Assembly: GCA_031254295.1 (NCBI GenBank)
Contig: JAIRUS010000046.1
Location: forward strand, 2,973-66,972
DNA from: Streptococcaceae bacterium
Lineage (GTDB): Bacteria; Bacillota; Bacilli; Lactobacillales; Streptococcaceae
DNA length: 64,000 nucleotides
Direction: 5' to 3'
Part shown: in pieces, positions 3,722 to 40,679 of the stretch
Numbering within the stretch: the stretch's first letter is position 1
Layout of the letters: each line of letters starts with the position of its first letter
Made by a program: the position numbers and the translations under genes
The notes under the pieces: model-generated
Told to the model about the DNA's origin: nothing
Databases searched by the model: none
Seen by the model: only the letters and a program-made list of their open reading frames with translations

Positions 3722-5374
3722 ATGAAATTTATAGAACAATTATATCAGAAATTAGCAGAAGTCTACTCAGGCCAAAAGCTAGAAGAAGCAAGAATAGCCT
3801 TTGAAGAGCTGGTTGAGGACTACTCAAAGCAGACTTTTTCAGAACGTGCACCCTTATCAGAAAAAAATGTTTATTTGATTACTTATGGGGATGCTTTTGT
3901 AGACGGCGATAGAAAAGGCTTATCAGTTCTTAAGGACGTTGTAGATAATAAACTGTCGGATACAGTCACAGATATTCATTTGCTTCCAATGTTTCCTTAT
4001 ACGAGCGATGATGGTTTTTCAGTAAGGGATTATGAGCAAATTAATTCTATCCTTGGAGATTGGAGGGATGTTAAGAGGCTTTCAGATGATTATCGCCTAA
4101 TGTTTGATTTTGTGGCCAACCATATGTCGCAATCAAGTGACTGGTTTCAGAAATTTTTGAATCAAGAGCCAGATTTTTCGGAGGCTTTCATCAAATTTGA
4201 TGAAAAGTTTGATAGCTCAAATGTCACACGCCCGAGGGTTTCTCCACTTTTCCATACTTATAAAAATGGACTGAAGGTTTGGACGACTTTTTCAGAGGAT
4301 CAGGTAGATGTTAATGCACAAGAGGTGAAGATGCTGGTAAGGCTGACTAAGATTCTGCTTGACTATGCAGCCAAGGGAGCAAGCAGCATTAGATTAGACG
4401 CAATTGGCTTCTTATGGAAAGAATCAGGCACGACTTGTATGCATCGGCCGCAAACTCATGCGATCATTCAGCTTTGGCGCTTACTGCTTGAAGAATTTGC
4501 ACCGAATACTCAAATAATAACAGAAACTAATGTGCCACATAAGGACAACGTTGCTTACTTTGGTAACGGAAATAATGAAGCGCAGCAAGTCTATCAATTC
4601 CCACTGCCTCCACTAGTATTACATACTTTTATCACAGGAAATAGCGAAAAGTTATCTGGTTGGGCAAAAGGCATAGAGCATGTGAGCCAAACAGCTAGTT
4701 ACTTTAATTTTTTAGCGAGTCATGATGGAATTGGATTACGTCCGACGGAAGGGATTTTATCAGACGAGGAGCGAGCACAACTTGTCGAACGCGTACTGGA
4801 AAACGGAGGTAAAGTTTCCTATAAAAATAATCCAGATGGCTCAGAATCAGTTTATGAGATGAATATCAATTTTTCCGAGGCGTTGAAAGAGGGAGAAAAT
4901 GATAAGTGGGTAACAGATAAAATGCTCGCTGCACATCATATTCTGCTTTCTGTAATTGGAGTTCCGGCTATTTATTATCACTCAATTTTTGGTTCAAAAA
5001 ATGATTACAAAGGCTTAAAGGAATCTGGGATAAATCGGCGAATAAATCGTGAAAAATTAGATATGCAGCAATTGTTTAACAGCTTAGAAGACGATGTTTA
5101 TCGAAAGGAGATATACCAAGGCATTCAGCGAATGATTAGAGTTCGGCAAAAAGAAATTGCCTTCAATCCTTATGGAAGCCAGAAGATTCTTGACTTGGGG
5201 AGTGGATGCTTTGGCGTGTTGAGAGAATTTAAAGGGCAACAAATTATTTGTGTCACGAATGTGACAAAGGAAAAACAAACATTGGGTGATTATGCGGGCT
5301 ATGATCTCATTTCTGAAAGGAAAGTTCAAGAACTTGGAGTCTATGAAACAGTTTGGATAAAGGAAGTCAGATGA
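3722..5374 (+). CDS. GH13_18 sucrose-phosphorylase-family enzyme, YcjM/glucosylglycerate-phosphorylase-like
   Basis: Motifs LITYGD, HLLPMFPYTSDDGFS, FDFVANH, RLDAIGFLWKESGT, ITETNVPHKDN, NFLASHDGIG, YEMNINF closely follow E. coli YcjM as I recall it. Confidence 0.85.
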   Translation: MKFIEQLYQKLAEVYSGQKLEEARIAFEELVEDYSKQTFSERAPLSEKNVYLITYGDAFVDGDRKGLSVLKDVVDNKLSDTVTDIHLLPMFPYTSDDGFSVRDYEQINSILGDWRDVKRLSDDYRLMFDFVANHMSQSSDWFQKFLNQEPDFSEAFIKFDEKFDSSNVTRPRVSPLFHTYKNGLKVWTTFSEDQVDVNAQEVKMLVRLTKILLDYAAKGASSIRLDAIGFLWKESGTTCMHRPQTHAIIQLWRLLLEEFAPNTQIITETNVPHKDNVAYFGNGNNEAQQVYQFPLPPLVLHTFITGNSEKLSGWAKGIEHVSQTASYFNFLASHDGIGLRPTEGILSDEERAQLVERVLENGGKVSYKNNPDGSESVYEMNINFSEALKEGENDKWVTDKMLAAHHILLSVIGVPAIYYHSIFGSKNDYKGLKESGINRRINREKLDMQQLFNSLEDDVYRKEIYQGIQRMIRVRQKEIAFNPYGSQKILDLGSGCFGVLREFKGQQIICVTNVTKEKQTLGDYAGYDLISERKVQELGVYETVWIKEVR

Positions 5375-7221: not shown

Positions 7222-7250
7222 TTGACCCTCCCCCAAAAAAGTGATAAACT
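7222..7250 (+). promoter_or_regulatory. Sigma-A promoter of the riboswitch-deaminase transcript
   Basis: TTGACC-17 bp-TAAACT with TG extension. Confidence 0.75.
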
Positions 7251-7257
7251 AAGTCAA

Positions 7258-7324
7258 CTTATTTATACCCAGAATATGGCTGGGCGTCTCTACCTCGCAA
7301 CCAATGGAAATGCGGGACAATAAG
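7258..7324 (+). ncRNA. Purine riboswitch aptamer, guanine-type discriminator
   Basis: P1 CTTATT/AATAAG; P2 CCCAG/CTGGG with loop AATATGG; J2/3 GTCTCTAC; P3 CTCGCA/TGCGGG; C at 7318. Confidence 0.85.
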
Positions 7325-7475
7325 GTTGTTTTTTAACAGCTTTTTTGATAATCCAGTTCGCCCAAGCAGAAAACTAGGAAAAAAGATGACTTGGAACCTG
7401 CGCTTTGCGCAGAACCACAAGCTCCCTATTTTTCTACGTTTTCTATCATGCTAGGGCTAACTTTTTATGTAAAGT

Positions 7476-22786: not shown

Positions 22787-23539
22787 ATGAAAAAATTGAT
22801 TGCCTTTGATCAGGACGATACCATTAACATCACTAAAATGCCGATAGATGGCGAAATGGCTGAGCTTCTCAGTCAACTGATGGAAAAGTTTCAAGTCTGC
22901 ATCATCTCAGGGACAGATTGGGAAGTCATGAAACGAAATGATATTGATACACTCCCAGCTAATGCCAATTTGACTAACTATATCATCATGCCGACGACTG
23001 GAACACAGTATTGGTATTTTGAAAATGGAGACTGGAAACGAGAGTATGCACACTTTCTGACTGAAGAACAGTCAGAGAAGGTCAGTGAAAGTTTGGAGAA
23101 GGCAGCAAAAAGTCTAGGTTATTGGCCAGACTTTCCAGAGGGAGAAGTGATTGAAAATCGTGGCTCGCAGATTACCTATTCGGGTCTGGGACAGTGGGCC
23201 AAGCCTGAAGAGAAGCACGCTTGGGATCCAGACATGAAGAAACGCCAGAAAATTTTGGCACTCATTGAAGAAGAGTTAAAGGAACTCGGTGTGAAAATGG
23301 GCATCGGGGGTGCAACCAGCATTGACGTGACGTTACCAAATATTGACAAGGCTTATGGTATACGCGAACTCATGAAAATCACGGGACTAAAAAAAGAGGA
23401 AATCCTATTCATTGGCGATATGCTTGACGAAGGTGGAAATGATTATCCCGTCAAGGCTTTTGGTATTGACACGATACAAGTCAGAAATTGCGAGGATACA
23501 AAATGGATTTTGCGAGGGATTTTAGCTATTTCCTATTAG
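22787..23539 (+). CDS. HAD-IIB phosphomannomutase-like enzyme
   Basis: AFDQDDT, IISG, ENRGSQIT, GGATSIDVT, FIGD...GGNDYP. Confidence 0.8.
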   Translation: MKKLIAFDQDDTINITKMPIDGEMAELLSQLMEKFQVCIISGTDWEVMKRNDIDTLPANANLTNYIIMPTTGTQYWYFENGDWKREYAHFLTEEQSEKVSESLEKAAKSLGYWPDFPEGEVIENRGSQITYSGLGQWAKPEEKHAWDPDMKKRQKILALIEEELKELGVKMGIGGATSIDVTLPNIDKAYGIRELMKITGLKKEEILFIGDMLDEGGNDYPVKAFGIDTIQVRNCEDTKWILRGILAISY

Positions 23540-23550
23540 GATTGAGTTCA

Positions 23551-23582
23551 AAAGAAAAAGCCAATTATTTGGCTTTTTCTTT
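23551..23582. terminator. Bidirectional terminator
   Basis: AAAGAAAAAGCCAA-TTAT-TTGGCTTTTTCTTT. Confidence 0.85.
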
Positions 23583-23718
23583 AAACTGTAGTATTTTGTG
23601 ACTGCACAACTAATGTAGCTCTGGGTTCAACTGTAGCCGAGATTTGGTGATTTCCTGATAGGACAACTGCAGTGGCGGTGGTCAAGATAACAATAATTTT
23701 AGCTAATTTCGTATTCAT
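23581..23718 (-). CDS. 45-aa peptide with signal-peptide-like N-terminus
   Basis: MNTKLAKIIVILTTATAVVLSGNHQISATVEPRATLVVQSQNTTV*; AGGAGAA RBS; stop codon sits in the terminator. Confidence 0.7.
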   Translation of the reverse strand: MNTKLAKIIVILTTATAVVLSGNHQISATVEPRATLVVQSQNTTV

Positions 23719-23742
23719 GATAATTTTCTCCTAATGATTCAA

Positions 23743-23856
23743 TTAATTAATTTTAATATTTACAGTGTAAGTGTTGATTTCGTAAACCATCATTGAATTC
23801 TCAGAAATTACACTATAATTTACTCTAAGTTTCACGATATTTGTATTTTTCATCAT
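23743..23856 (-). CDS. 37-aa hypothetical peptide
   Basis: MMKNTNIVKLRVNYSVISENSMMVYEINTYTVNIKIN*; AAGGAG RBS. Confidence 0.55.
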   Translation of the reverse strand: MMKNTNIVKLRVNYSVISENSMMVYEINTYTVNIKIN

Positions 23857-23902
23857 ATTTCCATTCTCCTTGCCTTAAAGGCTTTTCGCTTTCGATGATG
23901 TT

Positions 23903-23957
23903 ATTATAGGTTGCGTAGCTTAAAGAAATATTAGCTAGGACTGAAATCAAACTGAAA
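23903..23957 (-). promoter_or_regulatory. Promoter with 11-bp-phased CiaR-like hexamers
   Basis: Minus strand: TTTCAG-5-TTTCAG-5-GCTAAT-5-TTTAAG-10-TATAAT. Confidence 0.6.
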
Positions 23958-23996
23958 TTGTAAATTTCAGTCCTATAGATAAAAAGAAGCTCAATA

Positions 23997-24758
23997 TCAG
24001 AGCTTCTTTTTCATTTTGATTGTTCCGAGATTTCGATAGATAGAAAAACAATCAAGCAAGATTCTTGCATTAATCTGTAGCGCGATACGGCTAGAAGAAT
24101 CAACATCGAATTCATAACGACTGACGGGGGACTTGTAAGCGAGCATAGAATAATCGGCAAGATGGTGTAAGCGACTTCCTTTGCCACAAGTCAAAAGCAT
24201 TATGGTGATGCCTCTTTTTTTGGCCTCTTTGACAGCATTTATTAGGCTGTTAGTTTCACCAGATTGTGATAAGACGAGAATGACATCTTTCAGTCCTATT
24301 TGGTGGGAGTAGTAGAGAAAAAGGTCGTCATCATCAACATTGATACAGGGCTTTGCAATGAGATTCAACTTCCGATTGATATAATTTGCAATCGCTGTTG
24401 TGGTACCCGTGCTATAAATGTAGATGGTTTGAGCGCGATTCATCACTTGTACAAGATTTTCTACAATTTCAGGCTCTAATAACTCTAAAGTTTGATTGAC
24501 TTCAATAAAGTTTTTTTCGATAACGTGATTGACCTCATCAGAGAAGTTATTGAAGTGACGGAGTTCTTTTCTTTTGACAAAATTTTTATAGTCCGAATAG
24601 CCACTAAAGCCATGCTTTTTCAGACTGCGGATAATCGTTGCAGGTGATGCCGTCGCAAAGACTGACAGATCTTTAATTCCTAATTGAAGGACTTTCTGAG
24701 GATTTAGCTCAAGCTTAATAAATGTCTGCTTTTCCGTATCTGTAATTTCTTTTTTCAT
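23997..24758 (-). CDS. RpiR/MurR-family regulator
   Basis: ASPATIIRSLKKHGFSGY; SIS motif VLSQSGET. Confidence 0.9.
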   Translation of the reverse strand: MKKEITDTEKQTFIKLELNPQKVLQLGIKDLSVFATASPATIIRSLKKHGFSGYSDYKNFVKRKELRHFNNFSDEVNHVIEKNFIEVNQTLELLEPEIVENLVQVMNRAQTIYIYSTGTTTAIANYINRKLNLIAKPCINVDDDDLFLYYSHQIGLKDVILVLSQSGETNSLINAVKEAKKRGITIMLLTCGKGSRLHHLADYSMLAYKSPVSRYEFDVDSSSRIALQINARILLDCFSIYRNLGTIKMKKKL

Positions 24759-40152: not shown

Positions 40153-40428
40153 CTACTCCCAACCTCTAGCATCGGCCTGATCGCGCTGTTCAATATGATA
40201 AGCCAACTCTGGGAATTTATTTGCTTGACCTAAAGTGGCAGAAACTAAATCAGAAACTGCAGTTAGCATTTGATTGGCTAGATTTTTTCCTGTTTCCATT
40301 CCTGATATTCCAGAGCTGTAGTTCAACTCAATATTCTGATTTTGAAAATTAGACGCATCAATTCCTGTTAGCTCGGCGATTGCCTCTTGAGCATCGACGG
40401 TATTTGATTGTATATTCCCTGACGACAT
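40153..40428 (-). CDS. TIGR04197/DUF3130-like small T7SSb accessory protein
   Basis: Paralog of 9161-9433 (AQEAIAELTGIDAS.F.NQ...QANKFPELA). Confidence 0.8.
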   Translation of the reverse strand: MSSGNIQSNTVDAQEAIAELTGIDASNFQNQNIELNYSSGISGMETGKNLANQMLTAVSDLVSATLGQANKFPELAYHIEQRDQADARGWE

Positions 40429-40509
40429 ATAAACTCCTTCTTTTTAATTCACGATTTAATTTTACTATTTTTTTGTAAAAGTTTCCGCATAGAGGGATAA
40501 AATGTCGAT

Positions 40510-40574
40510 AAAAGTAAAAGAAAAGCTAGGTTCAACAACCTAGCTTTCCCGGAGAATTTATGAAGATCTTCTTT
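40510..40574 (-). ncRNA. Short CiaR-dependent-type small RNA (csRNA)
   Basis: TTTAAG-5-TCTAAG-10-TATAAT; core TTCATAAATTCTCC; terminator AAAGCTAGG-TTGTTGAA-CCTAGCTTTT. Confidence 0.75.
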
Positions 40575-40679
40575 AAATATATTATAAGCCATAGAGCTTA
40601 GAAAGAACTTAAAAAATACGATAAAATACAGTAAAATAGAAGCTAAAGATAATTTAAAAAATATAGGAATTTAATTAAT

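What the first reader, a model, noticed from the sequence alone, without database searches (positions are those of the whole stretch)
23581..23957. Unannotated two-peptide operon with a secreted-signal-like peptide behind four phased CiaR-like boxes
Seen: two minus-strand ORFs of 37 and 45 aa, each with an AGGAG RBS, between a TATAAT promoter and a strong terminator. The 45-aa product has a basic N-terminus, a hydrophobic core and an I-S-A site that would release TVEPRATLVVQSQNTTV. There is no -35; instead TTTCAG-5-TTTCAG-5-GCTAAT-5-TTTAAG sits exactly 10 bp before the -10, the same geometry as at the two csRNA promoters in this window. Inference: a CiaR-type activated operon encoding an exported signalling peptide (Phr/PapR-like precursor layout) or a small antimicrobial or envelope-stress peptide. 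No cognate RRNPP receptor is adjacent.
Basis: partly seen in the sequence, partly recalled or inferred. Interest (0 to 1): 0.75.

Follow-up and report, generated by a model that had tools for sequence, protein, structure and literature searches.

The report
CiaR-box small-protein operon, orphan family
Two tiny genes, one coding for a peptide that looks built for export, are real and kept by selection in two uncultured termite-gut Streptococcaceae species, and they sit behind a promoter of the type used by the CiaRH envelope-stress regulator; what the peptides do is unknown.

Summary
On the minus strand, four 11-bp-phased hexamers (TTTCAG, TTTCAG, GCTAAT, TTTAAG) end 10 bp before a perfect TATAAT, and there is no -35. 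Two AGGAG-led ORFs of 37 and 45 aa and a strong terminator follow.

The unit is not a chance ORF pair. A same-genus MAG (TD116_bin48) carries the same promoter, 5'UTR and ORF pair at a different locus, downstream of ptsI. This genome has a second copy at that ptsI locus, with two ORF1-type genes and no signal-peptide gene. Codon-position patterns and in-frame similarity show selection on the proteins.

The four-box layout aligns without gaps in all three loci. In other Streptococcaceae genera the same layout precedes csRNA-like genes, htrA and other putative regulon genes (about 60 hits against 3 for a reversed control). This genome encodes CiaRH. CiaR control is therefore well supported by inference but is untested.

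Neither peptide family has a relative in 1.8 billion representative proteins or in six-frame scans of 401 Streptococcaceae genomes. No receptor, modification enzyme, transporter or immunity gene lies next to any copy.

ORF2 has a classic n-h-c signal peptide with an AxA-type cleavage site. A SpoV/Phr-like exported peptide is my best guess at function, and it remains a guess.

The parts
23952..23957 (-). Box 1, TTTCAG (TTTTAG in both relatives)
   Evidence: the column is conserved as TTTYAG in all three loci.
23941..23946 (-). Box 2, TTTCAG. With box 1 it forms a CiaR-like direct repeat TTTYAG-N5-TTTYAG, two helical turns upstream of the canonical position.
   Evidence: It keeps T3, A5 and G6, the positions Marx 2010 found invariant.
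23930..23935 (-). Box 3, GCTAAT. A degenerate half-site at the canonical distal position (ACTAGG and AGAAAG in the relatives).
   Evidence: It lacks the essential G6 here, and it is degenerate in a different way in each locus.
23919..23924 (-). Box 4, TTTAAG. A consensus proximal CiaR half-site 10 bp upstream of the -10.
   Evidence: TTTAAG or ATTAAG in all three loci, always 10 bp from the -10.
23903..23908 (-). -10 hexamer TATAAT, with no -35. Predicted transcription start near 23896.
   Evidence: The start site is inferred, not mapped.
23857..23896 (-). 5'UTR with the conserved block ATCGAAAGNGAAAA directly after the predicted start, and SD1 AGGAG at 23866-23870.
   Evidence: the block is invariant in three loci; a 5'-proximal hairpin is clear in the two relatives and weaker and different here.
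23743..23856 (-). ORF1, 37 aa (MMKNTNIVKLRVNYSVISENSMMVYEINTYTVNIKIN). A hydrophilic, probably cytoplasmic miniprotein and a member of an orphan family of 4 copies.
23581..23718 (-). ORF2, 45 aa. The predicted Sec signal peptide (residues 1-28) is encoded at 23635-23718. The predicted mature 17-mer TVEPRATLVVQSQNTTV is encoded at 23584-23634. SD2 AGGAG lies at 23728-23732.
   Evidence: Cleavage is inferred from n-h-c features and the -3/-1 rule. SignalP was not available.
23549..23582 (-). Intrinsic terminator (AAGAAAAAGCCAA-ATAA-TTGGCTTTTTCTT then TTTG). It is bidirectional and shared with the convergent HAD/PMM gene.

Best explanation
This is a self-contained transcription unit of about 350 nt. 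It belongs to a small family restricted to this lineage: three operons in two termite-gut Streptococcaceae species.

Proposed mechanism, with each step marked:
1. [quoted passage not shown] Boxes 1-2 form a full repeat, and box 4 is a consensus half-site 10 bp from the -10. CiaR thereby replaces the missing -35 and activates transcription from about 23896. This step is inferred from comparative genomics.
2. Both ORFs are translated from their own strong Shine-Dalgarno sites. That the proteins are under selection is shown here. Translation itself is inferred.
3. ORF1 stays in the cytoplasm as a 37-aa hydrophilic miniprotein. This is inferred.
4. ORF2 is exported by Sec and cut by signal peptidase I after I-S-A, which releases a 17-residue linear peptide. 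The orthologue would release about 24 residues. This is inferred.
5. The released peptide is an output of envelope-stress signalling. Because the family is fast-evolving, patchy and duplicated, I think it most likely acts as an orphan extracellular signal in the manner of SpoV or Phr peptides, and not as a core feedback component. This last step is a guess, at roughly 0.3 on its own. The confidence given below refers to steps 1-4.
For: Anatomy:
- Searches show the boxes, -10, ORFs, SD sites and terminator.

Conservation:
- The same promoter, UTR and ORF pair lies downstream of ptsI in same-genus genome G005, which is MAG TD116_bin48.
- A paralogous operon lies downstream of ptsI in the window's own genome, contig C155.
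- All six small ORFs have GGAG-type SD sites 7-9 nt before the ATG.

Selection on the proteins:
- In-frame similarity scores exceed those of other frames and of shuffles. ORF1 scores 52 against 21 or less (z 4.9). ORF2 scores 61 against 50 (z 8.8).
- Codon differences at positions 1/2/3 are 10/15/29 of 37 for ORF1 and 25/15/31 of 45 for ORF2. Of the identical residues, 8 of 12 and 10 of 16 use different codons.

Regulation:
- The four-box promoter aligns without gaps in all three loci.
- The pattern TTTYAG-5-TTTYAG-16-WTTAAG-10-TANANT gives about 60 hits in 38 of 401 Streptococcaceae genomes, against 3 for the reversed control.
- Those hits lie in front of csRNA-like genes, htrA, a membrane-anchored Q/N/G-rich protein and an FtsX-like permease.
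- The window's genome has ciaR and ciaH. ciaR is 75% identical to pneumococcal CiaR as I recalled it from memory. Its recognition helix VVEVYMSKIRKKL compares with VVEVYVSKVRKKL in Marx 2010.
- CiaR-type boxes precede this genome's own htrA and csRNA-like genes.

Export:
- ORF2 has an n-region with 2 Lys, a 15-residue h-region and a c-region ending I-S-A. The orthologue keeps the layout with A-A-A.

Independent assemblies:
- The same loci, encoding identical ORF2-type proteins, were found in separate Logan assemblies.
Against: - There is no transcript, protein or CiaR-binding data.
- Box 3, at the canonical distal half-site, breaks positions reported as invariant or essential for CiaR activation. 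It lacks G6 here and is degenerate in a different way in each locus. CiaR would therefore have to act through a non-canonical arrangement.
- SignalP was not run, so ORF2 could stay membrane-anchored.
- No receptor, Opp-linked regulator or any other partner gene is adjacent at any of the three loci.
- The paralogous operon lacks an ORF2-type gene, so export cannot be the function of the whole family.
- The structure prediction for ORF1 was uninformative: pLDDT 62.5 and no fold.
- The most conserved part is the promoter and the first 20 nt of the transcript, not the coding regions. An RNA-level role therefore remains open.
Confidence: 0.55

Rival explanations
1. Feedback modulator of the sensor kinase. 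The ORF2 product, either cleaved or left as a small membrane-anchored peptide, acts on the extracytoplasmic face of CiaH. CiaX does this in the S. mutans ciaXRH system, and MgrB does it for PhoQ in E. coli. The result would be a feedback loop on the system that induces it.
For: A CiaR-type promoter drives a small peptide with an N-terminal hydrophobic segment. There is a precedent for a small third component of a Cia system, CiaX (review PMC8317062). CiaH is present, with a large extracytoplasmic loop region.
Against: CiaR is present in all six genomes of the genus, but the operon is in only two. A core feedback component should travel with the two-component system. The operon is not in the ciaRH operon. 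It has no SD-rich or calcium-binding segment. The paralogous operon has no ORF2-type gene.
Confidence: 0.15
2. The RNA is the main functional product. The conserved start of the transcript (ATCGAAAGNGAAAA plus a hairpin) would be a regulatory RNA element or a dual-function sRNA, and the small ORFs would be secondary.
For: The promoter and first ~20 nt of the transcript are the best conserved part of the unit. The CiaR regulon is rich in small RNAs. The two relatives have a 5'-proximal hairpin.
Against: The codon-position pattern, synonymous changes at conserved residues, preserved frames and strong SD sites at all six ORFs point to selection on the proteins. The whole transcript is not more structured than shuffles (z -0.45). 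It has no csRNA-type anti-SD (CUCCU) motif, and Rfam gives no hit. The hairpin is not kept in the window copy.
Confidence: 0.1
3. The promoter is real, but a regulator other than CiaR controls it. This could be another OmpR-family response regulator or a factor that binds the window-specific palindrome. On this reading the TTTAAG resemblance is a coincidence.
For: Box 3 breaks the CiaR rules. The genome has at least four other OmpR-family regulators. The window copy carries a 12-bp inverted repeat TAGGACTGAAAT/ATTTCAGTCCTA over boxes 1-2.
Against: The same four-box layout sits before htrA and csRNA-like genes in other genera, and these are the hallmark CiaR targets. Box 4 and its 10-bp spacing are exactly canonical. 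The palindrome is absent from the other two loci.
Confidence: 0.12
4. ORF2 is a membrane-damaging or antimicrobial small peptide, that is, a type I toxin or a Sec-dependent bacteriocin. ORF1 would be its partner or antidote.
For: The size and the N-terminal hydrophobic helix resemble type I toxins. Two small genes in tandem recall two-peptide bacteriocins.
Against: There is no double-glycine leader, and no immunity, ABC-transporter or modification gene at any locus. The predicted mature peptide is short, with net charge 0. No convincing antisense promoter was found. The h-region of 15 residues, followed by an AxA-type site, fits a cleaved signal peptide better than a pore-forming helix.
Confidence: 0.06

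Closest known systems
CiaR-dependent promoters of streptococci (NTTAAG-N5-TTTAAG, 10 bp before the -10; Halfmann 2007, Marx 2010 PMC3091779; S. mutans NTTAAG-n5-WTTAAG, Wu 2010 as cited in PMC8317062)
   Same: There is a consensus proximal half-site exactly 10 bp from a good -10, and no -35. The repeats are phased at 11 bp. CiaRH is encoded in the genome, and its own htrA and csRNA-like genes carry such boxes.
   Different: The distal half-site at the canonical position is degenerate. A full TTTYAG-N5-TTTYAG repeat sits two helical turns further upstream instead, giving a four-box layout. The papers I read describe two boxes only. Here the four-box layout recurs in other Streptococcaceae genera.
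SpoV of Streptococcus pyogenes (PMC8117530)
   Same: SpoV is a 51-55-aa precursor with a secretion signal that gives a 20-24-aa unmodified extracellular peptide. It is a stand-alone gene with no adjacent receptor, and its promoter holds several response-regulator (CovR) sites. ORF2 is a 45-54-aa precursor giving 17 to about 24 aa, is stand-alone, and has several CiaR-type boxes.
   Different: No sequence similarity was detected. The regulator is different. ORF2 is paired with a second small ORF. No activity has been shown.
Phr / PhrA-type Sec-exported propeptides of RRNPP quorum-sensing systems
   Same: The precursor has a similar size and layout: a Sec signal followed by a short hydrophilic tail.
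   Different: A cognate receptor gene next to the propeptide defines these systems (PMC10075063 abstract), and there is none at any of the three loci. The conserved part of the tail is its N-terminal EPxxxxLVQ core, not the C-terminus.
CiaX of the S. mutans ciaXRH operon; MgrB-PhoQ of E. coli
   Same: Each is a small exported or membrane peptide whose gene is under the control of the two-component system it modulates.
   Different: This operon is not in the cia operon, has no calcium-binding SD-rich segment, and is present in only 2 of 6 species that have CiaR.
csRNAs (cia-dependent small RNAs)
   Same: They have the same promoter type, the same short promoter-to-terminator unit, and occur in the same genome and window.
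   Different: This unit encodes proteins that are under selection, has no anti-SD/anti-AUG core, and gives no Rfam match.

Membership tests
CiaR regulon promoter | Direct repeat NTTAAG-N5-TTTAAG with T3, A5 and G6 kept in both halves | tested here: not met
   The proximal half TTTAAG is perfect. The distal half at the canonical position is GCTAAT, which lacks G6 (ACTAGG and AGAAAG in the relatives). A full TTTCAG-N5-TTTCAG repeat that keeps T3, A5 and G6 lies 22 bp further upstream.
CiaR regulon promoter | Repeat ends 10 bp upstream of a -10 box, with no -35 | tested here: met
   TTTAAG-N10-TATAAT in the window, and the same spacing in both relatives. The sigma-70 scan finds no -35.
CiaR regulon promoter | CiaR and CiaH encoded, with a conserved recognition helix | tested here: met
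   ciaR and ciaH lie on contig C93. The recognition helix is VVEVYMSKIRKKL, against VVEVYVSKVRKKL. Orthologues are present in all 6 genomes of the genus.
CiaR regulon promoter | Same promoter layout in front of hallmark regulon genes (htrA, csRNAs) | tested here: met
   The four-box pattern precedes htrA and csRNA-like genes in other genera, with about 60 hits against 3 for the control.
CiaR regulon promoter | CiaR binding and CiaR-dependent expression | not testable with these tools
   This needs EMSA, reporter assays or transcriptomes.
RRNPP (Phr/PapR/PhrA) propeptide | Small ORF with an export signal | tested here: met
   The n-h-c layout and an AxA-type site are conserved in the orthologue. 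SignalP was not run.
RRNPP (Phr/PapR/PhrA) propeptide | Adjacent cognate TPR-type receptor gene | tested here: not met
   The neighbours are RpiR/SIS and HAD/PMM here, and ptsI and Dps/ferritin at the other two loci.
SpoV family | Sequence homology to SpoV | tested here: not met
   The only relative of ORF2 in 5.8 billion clustered proteins is the G005 orthologue.
CiaX | First gene of the cia operon, with a calcium-binding SD-rich segment | tested here: not met
   The cia operon on C93 has no such gene upstream. ORF2 has no Ser/Asp-rich segment.
Class II / two-peptide bacteriocins | Double-glycine leader, with immunity and ABC-transporter genes nearby | tested here: not met
   There is no GG motif, and no such genes lie at any locus.
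Type I toxin-antitoxin | Overlapping antisense RNA gene controlling a hydrophobic toxin ORF | tested here: inconclusive
   No sigma-70-like plus-strand promoter was reported. There is one TATAAT at 23814-23819(+) with TTGAAT at a poor 15-nt spacing. Its conservation was not examined.
csRNA (Rfam RF02379) | Non-coding RNA of about 100 nt with an anti-SD/anti-AUG core | tested here: not met
   There is no Rfam hit and no CUCCU core in the transcript, and the ORFs are under protein-level selection.

The most novel reading that the evidence does not exclude
The operon could be a new peptide module that couples envelope stress to signalling. On CiaRH activation the cell would export a short linear peptide with a conserved EPxxxxLVQ core. 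A receptor encoded elsewhere would sense it. The ORF1-type miniprotein, an orphan family that is the constant member of all three operons, would be the intracellular effector or partner. The four-box promoter would make the unit respond to a different CiaR~P level from the two-box csRNA and htrA promoters of the same genome, by hierarchical or cooperative binding of two CiaR dimers.
Probability: 0.15. Interest if true: 0.65.

Novelty: new variant of a known kind. Interest (0 to 1): 0.42.

Why it matters
In the papers I read, the described CiaRH regulon consists of small RNAs, HtrA and envelope genes. I found no small-protein or peptide operon described as part of it. If this unit is CiaR-controlled, it adds two orphan miniprotein families, one of them exported, to an envelope-stress regulon. 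It also shows that such accessory members can be gained, duplicated and lost within one genus.

The side result may be of more general use. A four-box, 11-bp-phased version of the CiaR promoter recurs before csRNA-like genes, htrA and other genes across Streptococcaceae genera. This suggests that two CiaR dimers can act at one promoter, which can be tested in laboratory lactococci and streptococci.

The limits are that the organism is uncultured, the family has only three loci, and no function can yet be assigned.

Tried and rejected
- Rfam at gathering threshold on the whole window gave no csRNA or other RNA family at the locus.
- Pfam and NCBIfam at E up to 5 on all six small proteins gave only weak signal-peptide look-alikes: DUF4148, GspC and Prli42.
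- Word-indexed searches of 5.8 billion proteins with both family profiles returned only the family's own members.
- A full HMM scan of 1.84 billion representatives with the ORF1 profile returned only the four known sequences.
- Six-frame HMM scans of the genus and of 401 Streptococcaceae genomes found nothing credible beyond G000 and G005.
- An HMM scan of this genome's six frames gave one marginal hit on C173, which lies inside a long gene on the other strand and is chance.
- The promoter/UTR pattern in genome contigs found only G005 plus 3 unrelated hits. In metagenome contigs it found 2 hits before an unrelated gene in a higher-GC organism, which I take as chance.
- AlphaFold2 on ORF1 with the 4-sequence alignment gave pLDDT 62.5 and no fold, so I ran no fold search.
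- RNAalifold on the three 5'UTRs found no convincing shared helix. Single folds show the hairpin in two of the three loci.
- Wu 2010 (PMC2937423) is not held in the library.

Readings I considered and rejected:
- RiPP precursor: no modifying enzyme lies near any of three different contexts.
- Leader peptide or attenuator: nothing lies downstream except a terminator and a convergent gene.
- Link to the RpiR gene: it has its own terminator, and the adjacency is not conserved.
- The 12-bp palindrome over boxes 1-2 as an operator: it is absent from the other loci.
Full report
**1. What is in the sequence**

- Read on the minus strand, the region after the terminator of an RpiR/SIS regulator gene (23997-24758; hairpin 23981-24011) runs as follows: TTTCAG (23952-23957), 5 nt, TTTCAG (23941-23946), 5 nt, GCTAAT (23930-23935), 5 nt, TTTAAG (23919-23924), 10 nt, TATAAT (23903-23908).
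- No -35 hexamer is present, and the sigma-70 scan does not call a promoter here.
- ORF1 (23743-23856, 37 aa) and ORF2 (23581-23718, 45 aa) each have AGGAG 9 nt before the ATG.
- A hairpin of about 19 bp with a T-run at 23549-23582 ends the unit. It also serves the convergent HAD/phosphomannomutase-like gene (22787-23539).
- ORF2 reads MNTKLAK-IIVILTTATAVVLSG-NHQISA|TVEPRATLVVQSQNTTV. This is an n-region with two lysines, a 15-residue hydrophobic core, and I-S-A at positions -3 to -1.
- Rfam at gathering threshold recognises no csRNA in the window.

**2. The unit is conserved**

- The window is contig C51 of a 2.1-Mb, 181-contig assembly. Earlier notes call it a termite-gut Lactovum; I did not check this.
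- Among six genomes of the genus, one (G005) has a homologous unit. G005 is 'MAG: Streptococcaceae bacterium isolate TD116_bin48'.
- The G005 unit has the same promoter, the same start of the transcript, an ORF1-type gene (47 aa) and an ORF2-type gene (54 aa, MSKKFTKIVVIVTATVAGILAGGTQQIAAAAVREPPTAHLVQ...). The two genes overlap in ATGA, and a terminator follows. The unit lies between ptsI and a Dps/ferritin gene, a different place in the chromosome.
- The window's own genome has a second operon at that same ptsI-dps position, on contig C155. It has the same promoter type but two ORF1-type genes (32 and 41 aa) and no signal-peptide gene.
- The four other species of the genus have nothing of the kind after ptsI.

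**3. The ORFs are under selection as proteins**

- In-frame similarity between the window and G005 copies is far above that of other frame pairs and of shuffled sequences:

| ORF | In-frame score | Best other frame pair | z against shuffles |
|---|---|---|---|
| ORF1 | 52 | 21 or less | 4.9 |
| ORF2 | 61 | 50 | 8.8 |

- Differences pile up at third codon positions: 10/15/29 of 37 codons for ORF1 and 25/15/31 of 45 for ORF2. Most identical residues are encoded by different codons: 8 of 12 and 10 of 16.
- All six small ORFs have GGAG-type ribosome-binding sites at 7-9 nt.
- The same loci, encoding identical ORF2-type proteins, appear in independent Logan assemblies, which rules out an assembly artefact. 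Gene callers called both ORFs there. NCBI lists the G005 pair as hypothetical proteins, so 'unannotated' is only partly right.

**4. Both families are orphans**

- No Pfam or NCBIfam family matches.
- Profile searches of 5.8 billion clustered proteins return only the family's own members.
- A full HMM scan of 1.84 billion representatives with the ORF1 profile returns only the four known sequences.
- Six-frame scans of 401 Streptococcaceae genomes add nothing credible.
- Pattern scans of genome and metagenome collections with the promoter/UTR signature add only G005.
- The ORF1 type is the constant member, with 4 copies in 3 loci and the motifs VK(L/I)(K/R)VN(Y/F)SV and (S/T)Y-x-(A/V)N. The ORF2 type occurs in 2 of the 3 loci.
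- AlphaFold2 gave no confident fold for ORF1 (pLDDT 62.5).

**5. The promoter**

- The three promoters align without a gap from box 1 to about +25:

| Locus | Box 1 | Box 2 | Box 3 | Box 4 | -10 |
|---|---|---|---|---|---|
| Window (C51) | TTTCAG | TTTCAG | GCTAAT | TTTAAG | TATAAT |
| G005 | TTTTAG | TTTCAG | ACTAGG | TTTAAG | TATACT |
| C155 | TTTTAG | TTTTAG | AGAAAG | ATTAAG | TATAAT |

- Marx et al. 2010 give the CiaR consensus as NTTAAG-N5-TTTAAG placed 10 bp before the -10. T3, A5 and G6 are invariant in it, and G is essential (PMC3091779).
- Boxes 1, 2 and 4 keep these three positions. Box 3, which sits where the distal half-site of a canonical promoter would be, does not, and it is degenerate in a different way in each locus.
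- The promoter therefore fails the strict two-box definition. It has a perfect proximal half-site at the canonical position, plus a full repeat exactly two helical turns upstream.
- I used the layout as a search handle. TTTYAG-5-TTTYAG-16-WTTAAG-10-TANANT, with at most 1 mismatch, hits 38 of 401 Streptococcaceae genomes. There are about 60 sites, against 3 for the pattern read backwards.
- Downstream of the hits lie csRNA-like genes (…ACTCCTAAAA plus a terminator), htrA, a membrane-anchored Q/N/G-rich protein and an FtsX-like permease. The first two are hallmark CiaR targets.
- In this genome only the two small-ORF operons match the pattern. Its own htrA, csRNA-like genes, a clpE-like gene and a 100-aa membrane protein carry two-box versions.
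- The genome encodes ciaR and ciaH on contig C93. The recognition helix differs from the pneumococcal one at two positions.
- CiaR orthologues are in all six species of the genus, but the operon is in only two. The operon is therefore an accessory, recently mobile addition to a conserved regulon.
- CiaR control is the best reading, but it rests entirely on comparison.

**6. Transcript leader**

- The block ATCGAAAGNGAAAA directly after the predicted start is invariant in the three loci.
- It forms the 5' arm of a hairpin in G005 and C155, but not in the same way in the window copy. RNAalifold finds no shared helix.
- The whole mRNA is not unusually structured (z -0.45).
- I have no explanation for this conserved block. 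A 5'-terminal stabilising stem or a protein-binding site are possibilities.

**7. Function**

- None of the three loci has a receptor, transporter, immunity or modification gene next to it, and the contexts differ. This argues against an RRNPP cassette, a bacteriocin locus, a RiPP cluster and a leader peptide.
- The mature ORF2 peptide is short and has net charge 0, which argues against an antimicrobial peptide.
- A CiaX- or MgrB-like feedback peptide is possible, but it fits poorly with presence in only 2 of the 6 species that have CiaR.
- The closest analogue in layout is SpoV of S. pyogenes. SpoV is a stand-alone 51-aa precursor with a secretion signal that gives a 20-aa extracellular signalling peptide, and its promoter holds several response-regulator sites (PMC8117530). 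There is no sequence similarity between the two.
- I therefore commit to this reading: CiaR-activated transcription, translation of both ORFs, Sec export and signal-peptidase cleavage of ORF2, and an extracellular role for the released peptide that is probably signalling. The ORF1 miniprotein is an intracellular component of unknown role.
- The last step is a guess. The earlier steps are inferences from sequence and comparison.

**8. Verdict**

- This is a new variant of a known kind, a small-peptide operon controlled by a two-component system. It has two orphan miniprotein families and an atypical four-box CiaR-type promoter.
- Interest is moderate. The unit is clearly real and conserved, but the family is tiny, the organism is uncultured, and function is open.

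Noticed in passing
own genome contig C155, about 4640-5010 (locus L011 1463-1860): There is a paralogous operon just downstream of ptsI. It has a four-box promoter (TTTTAG-5-TTTTAG-5-AGAAAG-5-ATTAAG-10-TATAAT), two ORF1-type genes (32 and 41 aa), no signal-peptide gene, and a terminator.
   Followed up: yes
loci L029-L058 (other Streptococcaceae genera): Four hexamers phased at 11 bp (TTTYAG-like) precede csRNA-like genes, htrA, a membrane-anchored Q/N/G-rich protein and an FtsX-like ABC permease. There are about 60 hits against 3 for the reversed control. The CiaR papers I read describe only two boxes.
   Followed up: partly
own genome contig C93, 6500-10300: The ciaR (222 aa) and ciaH (447 aa) operon lies here. 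Its upstream region has TTTAAG-5-GGAAAG-10-TAAAAT, that is, a good distal half and a degenerate proximal half. The recognition helix has V-to-M and V-to-I changes relative to the pneumococcal sequence quoted by Marx 2010.
   Followed up: partly
own genome contig C52 (reverse-strand offsets 12831 and 15386): CiaR-type two-box promoters lie before htrA (404 aa) and before a 100-aa membrane-anchored Asn/Ser/Gly-rich protein. Homologues of that protein carry four-box promoters in other genera.
   Followed up: partly
window 23935-23971: A 12-bp inverted repeat TAGGACTGAAAT ... ATTTCAGTCCTA spans boxes 1-2, with an inner palindrome ACTGAAATT-TAC-AATTTCAGT. It is absent from the two related loci, so it is probably a by-product of repeat duplication.
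   Followed up: partly
window 23881-23896 and the aligned positions in L002 and L011: The block ATCGAAAGNGAAAA at the very start of the predicted transcript is invariant in all three loci and has no assigned role.
   Followed up: partly
window 23789-23819 (+): On the plus strand, TTGAAT, 15 nt, then TATAAT lies inside ORF1. It could be a weak antisense promoter. The spacing is poor, and I did not check conservation.
   Followed up: no
window 40428-40613 (-): TTTAAG-5-TCTAAG-10-TATAAT drives a very short RNA with a terminator, directly upstream of a WXG100/LXG toxin locus. I confirmed the promoter geometry only.
   Followed up: partly
L025 5280-5340 and L026 10067-10107 (metagenome contigs Ga0256404 and Ga0256405): An unrelated, higher-GC organism has TTTAAG-10-TAAATT followed by ATCGAAAGCGAAAA...GCTTCGA, before a gene for a UBA-like N-terminal protein. 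The resemblance to the leader here is probably chance.
   Followed up: no
window 7239-7340 (+): This is a purine riboswitch aptamer (RF00167, 54.9 bits). It is the only Rfam gathering-level hit in the window.
   Followed up: no
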